NCBI RefSeq assembly: GCF_003334305.1
Contig: NZ_QOWS01000009.1
Direction: 5' to 3' (one strand)
From: Escherichia coli
GTDB lineage: Bacteria > Pseudomonadota > Gammaproteobacteria > Enterobacterales > Enterobacteriaceae
DNA length: 64,000 nt
The notes beneath the pieces were generated by a model that was given only the letters and a program-made list of their open reading frames with translations, did not search any database and was not told the origin of the DNA. Below are positions 16,909 to 61,667 of the stretch, piece after piece (position 1 is the first letter of the stretch; every line of letters starts with the position of its first letter). Position numbers and translations under genes: made by a program.

Positions 16909-17352
16909 ATGGCAGATATCACTCTTATCAGCGGCAGCACCCTCGGCGGTGCCGAATATGTAGCAGAACACCTGGCTGAAAAGCTGGAAGAGGCGGGTTT
17001 TACCACCGAAACGCTGCACGGTCCGCTGTTGGAAGATTTATCTGCCTCGGGGATCTGGCTGATTATCAGCTCCACCCACGGTGCCGGAGATATTCCGGAC
17101 AACCTTTCTCCTTTCTATGAAGCATTGCAGGAACAGAAGCCCGATCTTTCTGCGGTCCGCTTTGGCGCAATCGGTATTGGTAGTCGTGAATATGACACCT
17201 TTTGTGGGGCTATCGATAAACTCGAGGCAGAACTCAAAAATTCCGGTGCAAAACAGACAGGCGAAACACTGAAGATCAACATTCTTGATCACGACATTCC
17301 GGAAGATCCGGCAGAAGAATGGCTGGGATCGTGGATTAATTTACTCAAATAA
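16909..17352 (+). CDS. mioC: Flavodoxin-like FMN-binding protein MioC (147 aa)
   Basis: ORF MADITLISGSTLGGAEYVAEHLAEKLEEAGF...; lies immediately next to oriC. Confidence 0.93.
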   Translation: MADITLISGSTLGGAEYVAEHLAEKLEEAGFTTETLHGPLLEDLSASGIWLIISSTHGAGDIPDNLSPFYEALQEQKPDLSAVRFGAIGIGSREYDTFCGAIDKLEAELKNSGAKQTGETLKINILDHDIPEDPAEEWLGSWINLLK

Positions 17353-17369
17353 GTATACAGATCGTGCGA

Positions 17370-17630
17370 TCTACTGTGGATAACTCTGTCAGGAAGCTTG
17401 GATCAACCGGTAGTTATCCAAGGAACAACGGTTGTTCAGTTTTTGAGTTGTGTATAACCCCTCATTCTGATCCCAGCTTATACGGTCCAGGATCACCGAT
17501 CATTCACAGTTAATGATCCTTTCCAGGTTGTTGATCTTAAAAGCCGGATCCTTGTTATCCACAGGGCAGTGCGATCCTAATAAGAGATCACAATAGAACA
17601 GATCTCTAAATAAATAGATCTTCTTTTTAA
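17370..17630. other. oriC: Chromosomal replication origin oriC: DnaA boxes R4 (17375-17383), R3 (17413-17421), R2 (17449-17457), R5M (17500-17508), R1 (17555-17563); AT-rich 13-mers R/M/L (17577-17620)
   Basis: TTATCCACA / TTATACACA 9-mers in canonical order and spacing, three GATCTnTTnTTTT-type 13-mers, dense GATC sites, position between mioC and mnmG. Confidence 0.93.
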
Positions 17631-17730
17631 TACCCAAGATCCCAGGTCTTTCTCAAGCCGACAAAGTTGAGTAGAATCCACGGCCCGGGCTTCAATCCAT
17701 TTTCATACCGCGTTATGCGAGGCAATCACC

Positions 17731-19620
17731 ATGTTTTATCCGGATCCTTTTGACGTCATCATCATTGGCGGGGGTCATGCAGGCACCGAGGCCGCGATGG
17801 CCGCGGCGCGTATGGGTCAACAGACTCTGCTTTTGACACACAATATCGACACTCTGGGGCAGATGAGCTGCAACCCGGCGATCGGCGGTATTGGGAAGGG
17901 ACATCTGGTAAAAGAAGTGGATGCACTCGGCGGTCTGATGGCGAAAGCGATCGATCAAGCGGGTATCCAGTTTAGGATACTAAACGCAAGCAAAGGACCG
18001 GCGGTTCGCGCTACCCGAGCTCAGGCGGATCGTGTGCTCTACCGTCAGGCGGTACGTACGGCGCTGGAGAACCAACCGAACCTGATGATCTTCCAGCAGG
18101 CGGTTGAAGATCTTATTGTCGAAAACGATCGCGTGGTCGGTGCTGTTACCCAAATGGGACTGAAGTTCCGTGCCAAAGCCGTCGTGCTCACCGTTGGGAC
18201 GTTCCTCGACGGTAAAATTCATATCGGTCTGGATAATTACAGCGGTGGCCGTGCTGGTGATCCGCCGTCCATTCCGCTTTCTCGCCGTTTGCGTGAACTG
18301 CCGCTGCGCGTTGGTCGTCTGAAAACCGGGACACCACCGCGTATTGATGCTCGAACTATCGACTTTAGTGTGCTGGCGCAACAGCATGGCGATAACCCAA
18401 TGCCGGTATTCTCGTTTATGGGCAATGCGTCCCAGCATCCCCAGCAGGTGCCGTGTTATATCACTCATACCAACGAGAAAACCCATGATGTGATCCGCAG
18501 TAACCTCGATCGTAGCCCAATGTATGCAGGGGTGATCGAAGGTGTCGGCCCACGCTACTGCCCGTCGATCGAAGACAAAGTCATGCGCTTCGCCGACAGA
18601 AATCAGCATCAGATCTTCCTTGAACCGGAAGGGCTGACTTCTAACGAAATTTATCCGAACGGTATCTCCACCAGCCTGCCGTTCGATGTGCAGATGCAAA
18701 TCGTCCGCTCTATGCAGGGGATGGAAAACGCGAAGATCGTGCGTCCGGGTTATGCCATTGAGTATGACTTCTTCGATCCTCGCGACCTGAAACCGACGCT
18801 GGAGAGCAAGTTTATCCAGGGGCTGTTCTTTGCTGGTCAGATTAACGGCACTACCGGTTACGAAGAAGCCGCTGCGCAAGGTTTGCTGGCCGGTCTTAAC
18901 GCTGCCCGTCTGTCTGCTGACAAAGAAGGTTGGGCTCCGGCGCGTTCTCAGGCCTATCTCGGCGTACTGGTTGATGACCTGTGCACTTTAGGAACCAAAG
19001 AACCGTATCGTATGTTTACTTCGCGCGCAGAATATCGTCTGATGCTGCGCGAAGATAATGCGGATCTGCGTTTGACTGAAATCGGTCGTGAACTGGGCCT
19101 GGTGGATGACGAACGTTGGGCGCGCTTTAACGAGAAACTTGAGAATATCGAGCGTGAGCGTCAGCGTCTGAAATCGACCTGGGTAACCCCGTCGGCGGAA
19201 GCTGCAGCCGAAGTGAATGCTCACCTGACTGCGCCGCTTTCCCGTGAAGCCAGTGGTGAAGATCTGCTGCGTCGTCCGGAAATGACTTATGAAAAATTAA
19301 CCACGCTGACGCCGTTTGCCCCTGCGTTGACAGACGAACAGGCGGCGGAACAGGTTGAGATTCAGGTTAAATACGAAGGTTATATCGCGCGCCAGCAAGA
19401 TGAGATCGAAAAGCAGCTGCGTAACGAGAACACCCTGCTACCAGCGACACTGGATTACCGCCAGGTATCCGGTCTTTCTAACGAAGTGATCGCCAAACTT
19501 AACGATCACAAACCGGCCTCTATCGGCCAGGCTTCACGTATTTCTGGCGTCACGCCTGCGGCCATCTCCATTCTGCTGGTGTGGCTGAAAAAACAGGGTA
19601 TGCTGCGTCGTAGCGCATAA
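17731..19620 (+). CDS. mnmG: tRNA uridine-5-carboxymethylaminomethyl modification enzyme MnmG/GidA (629 aa)
   Basis: FAD-binding N-terminus [22 protein letters not shown]; conserved position. Confidence 0.95.
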
Positions 19621-27863: not shown

Positions 27864-28161
27864 ACGCGTGATCCGTCCTGAAGAGCGTTCACATAGATCC
27901 TGCTGATATAAAACACCCCTGTTTTCCCGTTTATTCATTGATCGAAATAAGAGCAAAAACATCCACCTGACGCTTAAATGAAGGTACTGCCTTAATTTTC
28001 TGCAGACAAAAGGCGTGACGATGGTCGAAAATGGCACTTTCGTCAGCGGGGATAATCCGTTATTGAACAATTTATCCTCTGTCCATTTCACGATGAAAAA
28101 AATGTAGTTTTTTCAAGGTGAAGCGGTTTAAATTCGTTCTCAAATTACAGTCAGGACGCGT

Positions 28162-57011: not shown

Positions 57012-58259
57012 TTAGCCAAATTTAGGTAACACGTTAAAGACGTTGCCGAACCAGCACAAAATCACGGTTATACCAAAGAGAATGACAATCGCCGGAATAA
57101 GATTGCCGCCCCAGACCGTGAACATCTGATTGGGAAACTTCTTGCGAGCTTTGATTGCAAGCACTGCGGGAATAATGACCGCCCAGATGGTGGCGCACAG
57201 CCCGGCACCGCCGATCCCGTAAATAAAGCCGTTCGGGAAGATCAGATACAACAACGCAGGTGGCAGGAAGGTTAACAGCACGGTTTTGAAACGCCCGCCG
57301 TGGGAGTTATCAATCTTAAACAGGTCCGCCAGATAATCGAACAACCCCAGCGTGACACCAAAGAACGAACTGGCAACAGCTAAGTTAGAGAACACCAGCA
57401 GGCAAAACTCGATAATGCCGTGCTGTTTGGTGCCGAGGAACGATTTCACCAGCGAATCAACGTTGCCGCCTGAGGAGATTATCGCCTTAAAGCTTTCGCG
57501 CGGAATATTCCCCATCGTGCAATAGAGCCAGAAGAGATAAATCACCAGCGCCAGCAGCGAACCAAATACCACGCTTTTGATTAACTTATCTTTGCGTTTT
57601 CCATAGCAAATAATCAGGCTGGGAATATTGCCGTGGAAACCAAATGACGCCAGACACACCGGCAAAGCCATAAAGATATACGGGAAGTAAGACGTTCCCG
57701 CAGTGGTGCTGGTGGCATCGCGCAGGATGGAGTAATCGACCTGGAAGAAGAAAGAACCAAACACGATCACAAAGGAGATAATCTTCAGCCCGAGGAACAA
57801 TGAGGTAATGCGACTGGCGGCTAACGAACTTATCCACAATACGCTGGCAACGAAAATGGCTGTGCAGATCCCGACAATACGTGGATTAGCGTGATAGCCC
57901 AAATTCATTGATATCGTTTCACTAATGATCGCACCATTAGCAGAGATATAGGCATAAGTGAGGATATAGAGAACGAAGGCAACGGTAATACCGCTGATAA
58001 TGTTCCAGGTGTTACCGATTAAATCTTTGGTGATGGTGTTAAAACTGGAGCCGACAGGATAATTTAAATTTGCTTCTAATAACAATAACCCGGAATGAAG
58101 CATTGAAAACCAGGCAATGATAAGGATAAAGGCACCCCAGAAAAACCAGGCACCGGCAAGATCAACAGGTAAAGCAAACATACCTCCACCAATTACTGTA
58201 CCTGCTATAACCATAACACCCCAAAATGCAGAGTGCTTTTTTTCAGCTTGATCAGTCAT
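57012..58259 (-). CDS. tnaB: Low-affinity tryptophan permease TnaB (415 aa)
   Basis: Aromatic amino acid permease family; follows tnaA. Confidence 0.95.
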   Translation of the reverse strand: MTDQAEKKHSAFWGVMVIAGTVIGGGMFALPVDLAGAWFFWGAFILIIAWFSMLHSGLLLLEANLNYPVGSSFNTITKDLIGNTWNIISGITVAFVLYILTYAYISANGAIISETISMNLGYHANPRIVGICTAIFVASVLWISSLAASRITSLFLGLKIISFVIVFGSFFFQVDYSILRDATSTTAGTSYFPYIFMALPVCLASFGFHGNIPSLIICYGKRKDKLIKSVVFGSLLALVIYLFWLYCTMGNIPRESFKAIISSGGNVDSLVKSFLGTKQHGIIEFCLLVFSNLAVASSFFGVTLGLFDYLADLFKIDNSHGGRFKTVLLTFLPPALLYLIFPNGFIYGIGGAGLCATIWAVIIPAVLAIKARKKFPNQMFTVWGGNLIPAIVILFGITVILCWFGNVFNVLPKFG

Positions 58260-58349: not shown

Positions 58350-59765
58350 TTAAACTTCTTTCAGTTTTGCGGTGAAGTGACGCAATACTTTTGGTTCGTA
58401 GGTAAAGGTTAATCCTTTAATATTCGCCGCGTTCTCTTTCACATGTTTAAAGGCTTCAATAATGAAGTCCATATGTGTTTGAGTATATGTTGCGCGCGGA
58501 ATGGTTAAACGCAGCAGTTCAGCCGGGCATGGCAGTTGTTTACCGGTTTTCGGATCGCGGCCTAACAGGAAAGAGCCAATTTCTACCGCACGGATACCGG
58601 CGACTTTATACAGCTCGCACGCCAGCGCCTGTGCCGGGAACTGGTCTGCCGGGATATGCGGCAGCAGTTTACCGGCATCAACGAATGCCGCGTGACCGCC
58701 CGCCTGCTGGCAGACAACGCCAATCTCTTCCAGACCATCGACCAGATACTGTACCTGCGCGATACGATAAGCCAGCCAGTCGAGATTCATGCCGTCATAC
58801 AGACCTACCGCCAGACGCTCCATCGCGCCGCCTTCCAGGCCGCCATATGTCGGGAACCCTTCCTGCACCACGCAAAGGGTTCTGCACTCGGTGTACACAT
58901 CAAAGAAGCTGTCGTCTTTCATGCACAGCAAGCCGCCCATCGGTACCATCGCATCTTTCTTGGCGGACATCGCCAGCATATCGGCATATTTGTAGGTTTC
59001 GCGGGTGATCTGCTCGATGGTCCAGTCTTTGTATTCTGCTTCACGCTGCTTGATGAAATAGGCGTTTTCAGCAAAGCGTGCGGAGTCCATTACCACCGGA
59101 ATATCGTATTTCTTCGCGATGCTGTACATCGCTTTTAAGTTTGCCAGTGAAACCGGCTGACCACCTGCAGAGTTACTGGTGATGGTTGCAACGATATACG
59201 GCACGTTATTCGGGCCAACTTCTTCAATACCGCGTTCTAATCCCTCAAGGTCAAAGTTACCTTTAAAGTCGTAACGCACGCCAGTATCGAAGGCTTCTTT
59301 GATATAGACGTTACGCACGGTACAGCCGTTAATCTGGCTATGGCCCTGCGTGGTATCAAAGAAATAGTTAGAGAATGCCACCATTTTGCTGCGATCCAGG
59401 CCTTTTTCCTGCTCGCGTTTTTTAATCAGTACCGGAATATAAATTTGCTCTGCGCCACGGCCCTGGTGAGTCGGAATGGTGTATTGATAACCAAAGATAT
59501 TTTTCACTGACTCGGCTAACGCATAGTAGCTGCGGCTGCCGCTGTAGGCTTCGTCGCCGCGCATCATCGCGGCCTGCATACTCTGCGTCACCGCCCCGGT
59601 GCCGCTGTCGGTCAGTAAATCGATAAACACATCTTCGCTATCCAGCAGGAATGGGTTCATACCGGATTTAATAATTGCCTCTTCACGATAAGCGCGAGTG
59701 GTACGTTTTACTGGCTCAATAACACGAATGCGGAACGGCTCAGGGAGATGTTTAAAGTTTTCCAT
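58350..59765 (-). CDS. tnaA: Tryptophanase (tryptophan indole-lyase) TnaA (471 aa)
   Basis: [32 protein letters not shown]...; start placed 5 codons inside the ORF-track ORF. Confidence 0.96.
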
Positions 59766-59985
59766 TACATAATCCTTCATTTATTTTAATTACAGTGATC
59801 CCTGTGAATATTACATCTGCAATATCCATTAATTCGCCATGTATATATACAAGCACCATCATTTACTAAAATAAGTAAATAAACGAGAGATGGCCTTTGC
59901 AAAAGGCAAAATTAAGATATAGCAAACTAATCGTTCACATTGAATCTAATCGGTTTGGCTCTGGTGATGGCTACAGAAGGGTAAA

Positions 59986-60060
59986 TTAAGGGCGGTGATC
60001 GACAATCTTATTATCGATATTGAACCATTTTGAGGTCACACATATATGTAAGATATTCAT
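59986..60060 (-). CDS. tnaC: tna operon leader peptide TnaC (24 aa, MNILHICVTSKWFNIDNKIVDHRP)
   Basis: Reverse complement of 59986-60060 translates to the 24-residue leader with Trp12 and C-terminal Pro24 followed by a stop. Absent from the ORF track because it is under 60 aa. Confidence 0.93.
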   Translation of the reverse strand: MNILHICVTSKWFNIDNKIVDHRP

Positions 60061-60135
60061 AATGCACTTATCCTCGAAAGACACGAGGCTACAGTATAAT
60101 ACTCAAGAATTTTGTCTATTCTAAAATTGTTTAAA

Positions 60136-60151
60136 TGTGAATCGAATCACA
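60136..60151. promoter_or_regulatory. CRP binding site of the tna promoter (TGTGAatcgaaTCACA, perfect half-sites)
   Basis: Perfect CRP consensus centred about 61 bp upstream of the predicted tna transcription start; minus-strand -10 region near 60093-60100. Confidence 0.8.
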
Positions 60152-60302
60152 ATCGTTCGGGGAGCAATATTAAATGCTTTTTTTTAAGATTATAAATTAC
60201 GTAAGAATTTTAATGTTTAAAAAAAGGGTTGAGGAATAACAGGAGTGCTAACAATGAAGCGAAGCCGCATCTGACAGTCAGAATACGGCTTCGTAAGCGC
60301 GG

Positions 60303-61667
60303 TTACTTACCAATACAGAAGCTGGAGAAAATCCGCCCCAGCAGGTCGTCTGAAGTAAATTCCCCGGTGATTTCGCTTAAGTTCTGCTGTGCCAGACGCA
60401 ACTCTTCCGCCAGCAGTTCACCTGCCCAGGCACCTAACAGTTGCGCTTTACCTTGCTGCAAATGCTCTGCCGCCTGTTCCAGCGCCTGTAGGTGGCGACG
60501 GCGCGCCAGGAAGCCGCCTTCCATGTTGGTGTCAAAGCCCATGCTCTGTTTGAGATGGTTACGCAGCACATCCACACCTTCACCAGTCCTTGCCGAGAGA
60601 CGAATTAACGCGTGACCGTTCACTTCACTCATTCCCAGCGTTTCGCCGGTGATATCGGCTTTATTGCGCACCACGGTGATCGGCAGTTTCGCTGGCAGAC
60701 GGGCGATAAATTCCGGCCAGATCTCTGCCGGATCAACGGCGTCTGTCGTGGTGCCATCGACCATAAACAGCACGCGGTCGGCCTGTTCAATTTCCTGCCA
60801 CGCGCGCTCGATACCAATACGTTCCACTTCGTCACTGGCTTCACGTAGCCCAGCGGTATCGATGATATGCAGCGGCATTCCGTCAATGTGGATATGCTCA
60901 CGCAGCACGTCACGTGTGGTTCCGGCGATATCAGTTACGATTGCTGCTTCACGGCCCGCCAGCGCGTTTAACAGGCTCGATTTACCGGCGTTAGGACGTC
61001 CGGCAATCACCACCTTCATCCCTTCGCGCAACAAACTACCCTGACGTGCTTCAGCACGCACTGCATCGAGATCGGCAATCACGTCATTAAGCTGGGCTTC
61101 AATTTTGCCGTCGGAGAGGAAATCGATCTCTTCATCAGGGAAATCAATTGCCGCTTCGACGTAAATGCGCAAGTGGGTGAGGGCTTCCACCAGATGGTTG
61201 ACCCGTGCGGAGAATGCGCCTTGCAGCGAGTTAAGTGCCGAACGGGCCGCCTGTTCCGAACTGGCGTCGATAAGATCGGCAATCGCCTCGGCCTGGGCTA
61301 AGTCGAGTTTATCGTTAAGAAACGCGCGTTCGGAAAACTCACCAGGGCGAGCAATCCGCAGGCCGGGAATGGTCAGAATGCGTTTTAACAGCAGGTCGAG
61401 GATCACCGGACCGCCATGACCTTGCAGTTCCAGCACATCTTCGCCGGTGAACGAGTTCGGGCCAGGGAACCATAGCGCAATCCCCTGATCGAGCACGCTG
61501 CCGTCGGCGTCTTTAAACGGAAGATAATCGGCGTAGCGCGGCTTAGGTAGTTTACCCAGCACGGTTTCGGCAACTTCACGGGCTTTGAAGCCGGAGATGC
61601 GCAGGATGCCAACGCCGCCACGTCCCGGAGGCGTGGCCTGGGCTACGATAGTGTCATTATCGCTCAT
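60303..61667 (-). CDS. mnmE: tRNA modification GTPase MnmE/TrmE (454 aa)
   Basis: G-domain motifs [10 protein letters not shown] and DTAG; C-terminal ...CIGK. Confidence 0.96.

What the first reader, a model, noticed from the sequence alone, without database searches (positions are those of the whole stretch)
59986..60060. tnaC ribosome-arresting leader peptide missed by the ORF track
A 24-codon ORF on the minus strand encodes MNILHICVTSKWFNIDNKIVDHRP with the critical Trp12 and Pro24-stop arrangement used for tryptophan-sensed ribosome stalling. It is followed by a spacer of about 220 bp before tnaA, where Rho-dependent termination would occur.
Basis: partly seen in the sequence, partly recalled or inferred. 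Interest (0 to 1): 0.4.

Follow-up and report, generated by a model that had tools for sequence, protein, structure and literature searches.

The report
E. coli tnaC tryptophan-sensing leader peptide

Summary
The reverse complement of 59986-60060 translates to MNILHICVTSKWFNIDNKIVDHRP plus a stop, with Trp12, Asp16 and Pro24 next to the stop. The peptide is identical to the chain named "Tryptophanase operon leader peptide" in PDB 6i0y. It passes the curated thresholds of NCBIfam TIGR02616 and Pfam PF08053. It lies exactly 220 nt upstream of tnaA, which is followed by tnaB. The window is Escherichia coli, 100% identical over 46 kb to strain A7, where RefSeq already annotates tnaC at this place. 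Across four divergent E. coli alleles, all five polymorphic coding sites are synonymous. A C-rich, G-poor tract spans the stop codon, and the spacer holds no intrinsic terminator. A perfect CAP palindrome lies upstream. All of this matches the published mechanism: tryptophan-dependent stalling at the tnaC stop hides the Rho loading site. The finding is already known, so interest is low. One detail is worth noting. The stop codon here is TAA, not the TGA of K-12. TAA occurs in at least 1,762 of 5,426 complete E. coli genomes. UAA can be read by RF1 as well as RF2, and TnaC is reported to block RF2 better than RF1, so this allele may change basal or induced expression. That was not tested here.

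The parts
60136..60151 (.). Perfect CAP/CRP-type palindrome TGTGA-N6-TCACA upstream of tnaC; catabolite control of the tna promoter
   Evidence: It is the only match in the 64 kb window, against 0.08 expected. It is invariant in 4 divergent alleles. Catabolite repression of the operon is stated in PMC8429421. That CRP binds this site is inferred.
60096..60125 (-). Sigma-70 promoter-like site (TTTAGA, 18 nt, TATTAT) for the tna transcript
   Evidence: Consensus scan, 9 of 12 matches. The number of such sites found in the region equals what shuffles give, so this is weak evidence on its own. The G at 60084 lies 319 nt before the tnaA ATG, which matches the 319-nt leader I recall for K-12 (memory, not checked here).
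60071..60075 (-). Shine-Dalgarno-like GAGGA, with 10 nt between it and the tnaC ATG
   Evidence: Read directly from the sequence. It supports ATG 60060 as the start rather than the in-frame GTG at 60084. RefSeq uses the same start.
59986..60060 (-). tnaC, 24 codons plus a TAA stop: MNILHICVTSKWFNIDNKIVDHRP
   Evidence: All 5 polymorphic coding sites among 4 alleles are synonymous.
60025..60027 (-). Trp12 codon (TGG), the only Trp codon in tnaC
   Evidence: Trp12 is strictly conserved and contacts 23S rRNA residue pseudouridine 746 (PMC8429421).
60013..60015 (-). Asp16 codon (GAT here, GAC in K-12)
   Evidence: Asp16 is conserved and bridges U2609 and Lys18 (PMC8429421, PMC8450073).
59986..59991 (-). 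[quoted passage not shown]
   Evidence: Mechanism from PMC8429421 and PMC8450073.
59986..59994 (-). boxA-like CGCCCTTAA overlapping Arg23, Pro24 and the stop codon
   Evidence: The sequence is. That the tna leader has a boxA element rests on the title of Konan and Yanofsky 2000 as cited in PMC8429421. Its exact position is from memory.
59945..60004 (-). C-rich, G-poor tract spanning the tnaC stop codon: the Rho utilisation (rut) region
   Evidence: 40-nt windows starting between 60014 and 59984 hold 11-15 C against 4-6 G, whereas windows elsewhere in the leader hold about as many C as G or fewer (C minus G at most 5). The first 50 nt of the spacer have 1 polymorphic site in 4 alleles, against 24 of 120 in the middle. 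The rut site is placed immediately after the tnaC stop in PMC8429421 and PMC10941005.
59766..59985 (-). 220-nt tnaC-tnaA spacer, where Rho-dependent termination occurs; its last 50 nt carry the tnaA translation start signals
   Evidence: Length. No terminator-like hairpin with a T run. The last 50 nt are invariant in 4 alleles.
58350..59765 (-). tnaA, tryptophanase, 471 aa, starting MENFKH
   Evidence: TIGR02617 at 1010 bits against a cut-off of 825.8. RefSeq WP_001295247.1. The mechanical ORF runs 5 codons further upstream, to 59780.
57012..58259 (-). tnaB, low-affinity tryptophan permease, 415 aa
   Evidence: NF007235 at 926.7 bits against a cut-off of 497. RefSeq annotation.

Best explanation
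This is tnaC, the cis-acting leader peptide gene of the E. coli tnaCAB (tryptophanase) operon. Transcription starts from a CRP-dependent promoter about 24 nt upstream of the tnaC ATG. A ribosome translates the 24 codons. When free tryptophan is low, a release factor cleaves TnaC-tRNA(Pro) at the stop codon and the ribosome leaves. This exposes the C-rich rut/boxA region that spans and follows the stop codon. Rho loads there and terminates transcription within the 220-nt spacer, before tnaA. When free tryptophan is high, the nascent peptide (Trp12, Asp16, Pro24) and the exit tunnel together bind one L-Trp. The peptidyl-transferase centre is then held in a state where the release factor cannot hydrolyse the peptidyl-tRNA. 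The stalled ribosome covers the rut site, Rho cannot load, and RNA polymerase reads through into tnaA and tnaB. Shown here: the identity of the peptide, the gene order, the spacer length, the composition of the rut region, the absence of an intrinsic terminator, and purifying selection on the peptide. Taken from published experiments on the identical peptide: the stalling, the tryptophan binding and the dependence on Rho. Inferred: that the TAA allele in this window behaves qualitatively like the TGA allele of K-12.
For: Translation. NCBIfam TIGR02616 equivalog at 44.3 bits against 23.55, with tnaA and tnaB equivalogs directly downstream. Pfam PF08053 E = 1.1e-19. 24/24 identity to PDB 6i0y chain 7, and a 20-residue match to 4uy8 chain 7. 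100% identity to E. coli A7, where tnaC (WP_001364348.1) is annotated. The same protein accession is annotated in every other strain whose annotation was fetched. All 5 polymorphic coding sites are synonymous third positions, P about 2e-4 to 3e-3 under random substitution. There is a C>G tract at the stop codon. The first and last 50 nt of the spacer are conserved and the middle is variable. No terminator-like sites. The leader fold has z = -1.56, and 6 of 100 shuffles fold as well. The CAP palindrome is unique in the window. Mechanism: PMC8429421, PMC8450073, PMC10941005.
Against: Nothing contradicts the identification. The only departure from the reference system is the TAA stop codon. The published structures and most of the biochemistry used UGA and RF2, and RF1 is reported to release TnaC efficiently (PMC8450073, discussion; PMC12407103). 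The size of the tryptophan response of this allele is therefore not established by anything done here. Rfam has no family for this leader, which is expected for a peptide-based sensor. The promoter scan by itself is no better than chance.
Confidence: 0.97

Rival explanations
1. A chance short ORF in the mnmE-tnaA intergenic region that is not translated and has no regulatory role.
For: Short ORFs are abundant: 120 ORFs of at least 20 aa overlap this 9 kb stretch. The promoter-like hits are no more frequent than in shuffles.
Against: The ORF matches curated family models and is identical to a peptide solved inside the stalled ribosome. Its polymorphism across alleles is synonymous only. It has a Shine-Dalgarno-like sequence and is annotated in thousands of genomes.
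Confidence: 0.005
2. A trpL-type attenuator. Ribosome speed over Trp codons would choose between alternative RNA hairpins, one of which is an intrinsic terminator, so tRNA(Trp) charging rather than free tryptophan would be sensed.
For: A leader peptide with a Trp codon upstream of a tryptophan-related operon looks superficially like trpL. The minimum-free-energy fold of the leader has some long-range pairing.
Against: There is one Trp codon only, at position 12 of 24, and none in tandem. No hairpin with a T-run terminator occurs anywhere in 59700-60320. The leader fold is not significantly more stable than shuffles (z = -1.56). The middle of the spacer, which would have to hold the hairpins, is the least conserved part, with 24 of 120 sites polymorphic. 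The operon is catabolic and is induced by tryptophan, not repressed (PMC8429421).
Confidence: 0.01
3. The same tnaC system, but the TAA allele is functionally distinct. Because UAA is read by RF1 as well as RF2, and RF1 releases TnaC efficiently, this allele would give weaker or higher-threshold tryptophan induction, or lower basal expression, than the K-12 TGA allele.
For: The stop is TAA here and TGA in K-12. At least 1,762 genomes carry TAA and at least 3,140 carry TGA, out of 5,426. TnaC works better against RF2 than RF1 (PMC8450073, PMC12407103 and PMC10314930, all citing Emmanuel et al. 2019). The same G-to-A change lies inside the boxA-like element.
Against: Nothing measured here shows any expression difference. 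From memory, Konan and Yanofsky (J Bacteriol 1999) found that engineered UAA or UAG stops remained tryptophan-inducible with a lower basal level; I could not read that paper here. An allele present in about a third of genomes may be nearly neutral.
Confidence: 0.35

Closest known systems
E. coli K-12 tnaC (tryptophanase operon leader peptide; Pfam PF08053, NCBIfam TIGR02616; PDB 4uy8, 6i0y)
   Same: Identical 24-residue peptide and the same RefSeq protein WP_001364348.1. Same position between mnmE and tnaA, the same 220-nt spacer, the same CAP palindrome and the same rut region.
   Different: Four synonymous changes in codons 15-18 and a TAA stop instead of TGA. About 5% nucleotide divergence over the 611-nt region, concentrated in the middle of the spacer and just upstream of the transcription start.
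Proteus vulgaris TnaC
   Same: A leader peptide of a tna operon that senses free tryptophan through the ribosome and controls Rho-dependent termination in a spacer (titles and text cited in PMC8429421 and PMC3082878).
   Different: [quoted passage not shown] Here Pro24 is directly followed by the stop codon.
SpeFL (ornithine-sensing arrest peptide) and MsrDL (macrolide-sensing)
   Same: Short leader peptides that, with a small molecule bound in the exit tunnel, block release-factor action at their own stop codon (PMC8429421, PMC10314930).
   Different: They have unrelated sequences and ligands. SpeFL blocks RF1. MsrDL uses a UAA stop and blocks both RF1 and RF2. TnaC preferentially blocks RF2 (PMC10314930, PMC12407103).
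trpL attenuator of the trp biosynthetic operon
   Same: A short leader ORF that couples translation to transcription termination upstream of tryptophan-related genes.
   Different: trpL senses charged tRNA(Trp) through tandem Trp codons and alternative hairpins that end in an intrinsic terminator (established knowledge). Here there is one Trp codon, no terminator hairpin and no significant structure, and termination depends on Rho.

Membership tests
TnaC tryptophanase leader peptide (Pfam PF08053 / NCBIfam TIGR02616) | Sequence match above the curated family thresholds | tested here: met
   TIGR02616 at 44.3 bits against a cut-off of 23.55, E = 1.1e-11. PF08053 at 69.6 bits, E = 1.1e-19, covering model positions 1-24 of 24.
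TnaC tryptophanase leader peptide (Pfam PF08053 / NCBIfam TIGR02616) | Conserved Trp12 and Asp16, with Pro24 eight residues after the Asp | tested here: met
   W12, D16 and P24 are present, with codons at 60027-60025, 60015-60013 and 59991-59989. Their roles are described in PMC8429421 and PMC8450073.
TnaC tryptophanase leader peptide (Pfam PF08053 / NCBIfam TIGR02616) | Pro24 codon directly followed by a stop codon (E. coli type, termination arrest) | tested here: met
   CCT TAA at 59991-59986.
TnaC tryptophanase leader peptide (Pfam PF08053 / NCBIfam TIGR02616) | Encoded directly upstream of tnaA (and tnaB), on the same strand | tested here: met
   tnaA at 58350-59765 and tnaB at 57012-58259, both on the minus strand and both passing equivalog cut-offs. 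RefSeq gives the gene order mnmE-tnaC-tnaA-tnaB.
TnaC tryptophanase leader peptide (Pfam PF08053 / NCBIfam TIGR02616) | Untranslated spacer with a rut site next to the stop codon and no intrinsic terminator | tested here: met
   220-nt spacer, with 11-15 C against 4-6 G per 40 nt across the stop codon. Zero terminator-like sites. This is consistent in composition only; Rho binding itself was not tested.
TnaC tryptophanase leader peptide (Pfam PF08053 / NCBIfam TIGR02616) | Tryptophan-dependent ribosome stalling and Rho-dependent attenuation | not testable with these tools
   Established experimentally for the identical peptide (PDB 6i0y and 4uy8; PMC8429421, PMC8450073), but not for this nucleotide allele.
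K-12 reference allele of tnaC (nucleotide level; not a defining feature of the TnaC family) | UGA stop codon, read only by RF2 | tested here: not met
   The window has TAA and the K-12-type strain has TGA. At least 1,762 of 5,426 genomes carry TAA and at least 3,140 carry TGA.
trpL-type hairpin attenuator (considered and rejected) | Tandem regulatory codons, alternative hairpins and an intrinsic terminator | tested here: not met
   A single Trp codon, no terminator-like site, and a leader fold of z = -1.56.

The most novel reading that the evidence does not exclude
The TAA stop of this tnaC allele is shared by roughly a third of complete E. coli genomes and is tightly linked to an A five bases downstream. 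It may be a natural regulatory variant. It would open the stalled complex to RF1 and alter the boxA-like element, and so shift the basal level or the tryptophan threshold of tryptophanase, and hence indole production, between E. coli lineages.
Probability: 0.3. Interest if true: 0.3.

Novelty: already known. Interest (0 to 1): 0.07.

Why it matters
TnaC is the textbook case of a nascent peptide that turns the ribosome into a small-molecule sensor, and it controls indole production in E. coli. Finding it here only confirms that a sequence-only reader can recognise a 24-codon regulatory ORF that size-limited ORF tracks drop. The one point with some biological content is the common TAA/TGA stop-codon polymorphism. 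If release-factor choice matters in vivo as the in vitro work suggests, it could explain strain-to-strain differences in indole signalling. That would be a modest, directly testable result.

Tried and rejected
I scanned 59000-61000 against Rfam at E up to 1 and found nothing; there is no RNA family for this leader. The promoter scan gave 3 sites, the same number as shuffles give, so it is uninformative by itself. The terminator scan found none. The whole-leader RNA fold was not significantly more stable than shuffles, so I rejected a hairpin attenuator. I tried to read the primary papers on stop-codon identity and on boxA/rut: Konan and Yanofsky 1997 (PMC178893) and 2000 (PMC94583), and Emmanuel et al. 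2019 (PMC6916493, also by DOI). None is held, so those results are cited only through papers that cite them, or are marked as memory. A literature search for the natural UAA allele together with indole and strains found no paper. I deliberately did not run the large protein-database or genome-collection scans for cross-species TnaC homologues. Identity to a curated, structurally solved family was already established, and the cost was not justified. I checked + strand ORFs overlapping tnaC (for example 60020..60124, 34 aa; 59897..59989, 30 aa), and nothing supports them.

Full report
**Observation.** The minus strand of window 59986-60060 reads ATGAATATCTTACATATATGTGTGACCTCAAAATGGTTCAATATCGATAATAAGATTGTCGATCACCGCCCTTAA. 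It translates to MNILHICVTSKWFNIDNKIVDHRP followed by a stop. Trp12 is TGG at 60027-60025, Asp16 is GAT at 60015-60013, Pro24 is CCT at 59991-59989, and the stop is TAA at 59988-59986. The next gene downstream begins with ATG at 59765 ([10 protein letters not shown]...), so the untranslated spacer is exactly 220 nt, 59985-59766.

A 24-codon ORF alone means nothing. The mechanical ORF list gives 120 ORFs of at least 20 aa in the surrounding 9 kb. It also lists this one in an extended form that starts at an in-frame GTG at 60084. The ATG at 60060 is preferred for three reasons. A GAGGA precedes it, with 10 nt in between. The Pfam model covers residues 9-32 of the extended form and nothing before them. 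RefSeq uses the same start.

**Identity.** The peptide scores 44.3 bits against NCBIfam TIGR02616 (tnaC_leader, equivalog, cut-off 23.55). The two genes downstream pass the equivalog cut-offs for tryptophanase TnaA (1010 bits against 825.8) and the low-affinity tryptophan permease TnaB (926.7 against 497). The gene upstream is mnmE. Pfam PF08053 (Tna_leader) matches over its full length with E = 1.1e-19. The Protein Data Bank holds a chain of exactly this sequence, 6i0y chain 7, named "Tryptophanase operon leader peptide", and a 20-residue version in 4uy8.

The 611 bases around the ORF are 100% identical to E. coli strain A7, and 5,420 of 5,426 complete E. coli genomes have a match. The whole of window 17731-64000 is identical, without one mismatch, to A7 positions 4789791-4836060. 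In that record, tnaC (WP_001364348.1), tnaA and tnaB are annotated at the corresponding positions. The gene is therefore not missing from public annotation.

**Evidence of constraint.** I aligned the window with three divergent E. coli alleles: a K-12-type O16:H48 strain, PSUO2 and LD67-1. All four encode the same peptide. The 72 coding bases hold five polymorphic sites, all at third codon positions (codons 13, 15, 16, 17 and 18) and all synonymous. If substitutions fell at random, the chance of that is about 2e-4 counting all changes, or 3e-3 counting transitions only.

The non-coding parts show an informative pattern:
- The first 50 nt of the spacer have one polymorphic site.
- The middle 120 nt have 24.
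- The last 50 nt, before the tnaA start, have none.

So the peptide, the stretch just after the stop codon and the tnaA initiation region are constrained. The middle of the spacer is free to vary.

**Anatomy and mechanism.** A perfect CAP-type palindrome TGTGA-N6-TCACA lies at 60136-60151. It is the only one in the 64-kb window, against 0.08 expected by chance. It is followed by a promoter-like pair of hexamers at 60125-60096 (weak evidence on its own). The G at 60084 lies 319 nt before the tnaA ATG, which equals the leader length I recall for K-12 (memory, not verified here).

In 40-nt windows, C outnumbers G by 11-15 to 4-6 from about 60014 to 59945, that is, across the last tnaC codons, the stop codon and the first 40 nt of the spacer. 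Windows elsewhere in the leader hold about as many C as G, or fewer. This is the composition expected of a Rho utilisation site, and it is where the literature places the tna rut site, immediately after the tnaC stop (PMC8429421, PMC10941005).

There is no hairpin with a T-run terminator anywhere in 59700-60320. The 319-nt leader does not fold significantly better than shuffled sequence (z = -1.56; 6 of 100 shuffles fold as well). Together with the single Trp codon, this rules out a trpL-type hairpin attenuator.

The published mechanism, worked out on the identical peptide, runs as follows. At low tryptophan the ribosome terminates at the tnaC stop and leaves. Rho then loads on the exposed rut site and terminates transcription in the spacer. 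At high tryptophan the nascent peptide and the exit tunnel bind one L-Trp, release-factor hydrolysis of TnaC-tRNA(Pro) is blocked, the stalled ribosome hides the rut site, and tnaA and tnaB are transcribed (PMC8429421, PMC8450073, PMC10941005). Identity and anatomy are shown here. The stalling and the dependence on Rho are taken from those papers.

**The one departure from the reference.** The stop codon here is TAA, whereas the K-12-type allele has TGA. Exact 35-mer searches centred on the stop codon gave these counts among 5,426 complete E. coli genomes:

| Stop codon | Base 5 nt downstream | Genomes |
|---|---|---|
| TAA | A | 1,726 |
| TAA | G | 36 |
| TGA | G | 3,139 |
| TGA | A | 1 |

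TAA is thus a common natural allele, found in at least 1,762 genomes, and it is tightly linked to the downstream base. About 500 further genomes have other changes within the 35-mer and were not classified.

This is of some interest because UGA is read only by RF2, while UAA is read by RF1 and RF2. TnaC is reported to inhibit RF2 preferentially. Su et al. remark that release of TnaC "is efficiently catalysed by RF1" (PMC8450073). Two other papers summarise the same result of Emmanuel et al. 2019 (PMC12407103, PMC10314930). The G-to-A change also falls inside the boxA-like CGCCCTT(G/A)A element. I could not read the primary papers. From memory, engineered UAA and UAG stops remained inducible with a lower basal level. 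Whether the natural TAA allele changes the response is therefore open. A search of the held literature found nothing on it.

**Comparison with known systems and verdict.** This is a member of the TnaC family. Every defining feature that can be tested in sequence is met, and the peptide is identical to the experimentally studied one. It differs from the K-12 reference only by synonymous changes and the stop codon. It differs from Proteus vulgaris TnaC, which has two codons after the Pro and arrests elongation (PMC3082878). It also differs from SpeFL and MsrDL, which are unrelated peptides that block release factors with other ligands (PMC8429421, PMC10314930). The finding is correct, already known and of low interest. 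The most novel reading the evidence leaves open is that the TAA allele is a natural tuning variant of indole regulation. I give that about 0.3 probability, and modest interest if true.

Noticed in passing
window 59986-59988 (stop codon) and 59982: The tnaC stop codon is TAA here and TGA in K-12. In 5,426 complete E. coli genomes, at least 1,762 carry TAA and at least 3,140 carry TGA. The stop-codon base is almost perfectly linked to an A/G site five bases downstream (TAA+A 1,726, TAA+G 36, TGA+G 3,139, TGA+A 1). UAA admits RF1, which TnaC is reported to block poorly.
   Followed up: partly
window 59816-59935 (middle of the tnaC-tnaA spacer): This 120-nt stretch is polymorphic at 24 sites among just four E. 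coli alleles. The 50 nt on either side have 1 and 0 polymorphic sites. The diversity is unusually high for E. coli and could reflect relaxed constraint or old, recombining haplotypes.
   Followed up: partly
window about 60151-60302; locus L006 1023-3192: In about 790 genomes the match to the window does not reach 80% of the 611-nt query. The two such hits listed with a partial match (H18, H19) break off just upstream of the CAP palindrome. In the one I examined, cattle strain 109, a frameshifted ShET2/EspL2-family type III effector gene sits between mnmE and tnaC. The conserved tna regulatory module thus starts at the CAP site.
   Followed up: partly
E. coli genome collection (not in the window): One genome carries 7 separate places matching the tna leader with the TAA allele. 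Six genomes have no match at all, and strain AH62 matches only 53 nt inside tnaA. These could be amplifications and deletions of the tna leader. The genome with 7 places was not identified.
   Followed up: no
window about 17380-17560: This looks like the chromosomal replication origin oriC, just beyond the end of mnmG. It has consensus DnaA boxes TTATCCACA at 17383 (-) and 17555 (+). The two 500-nt bins from 17001 to 18000 each hold 12 GATC sites, against a window mean of 2.5.
   Followed up: partly
window 15-1556 (-): A complete 16S ribosomal RNA gene (Rfam RF00177, 1576.8 bits). No tRNA genes were found anywhere in the window.
   Followed up: no
window 27921-28078 (-): A full-length match to the enterobacterial sRNA STnc410 (RF02060, 187.7 bits) in the atpC-glmU intergenic region.
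   Followed up: no
window about 31825-36807 (+): The long polar fimbriae operon lpfABCD-O113 lies between pstS and glmS, as annotated in strain A7. From memory this is an accessory island that K-12 lacks at this site.
   Followed up: no
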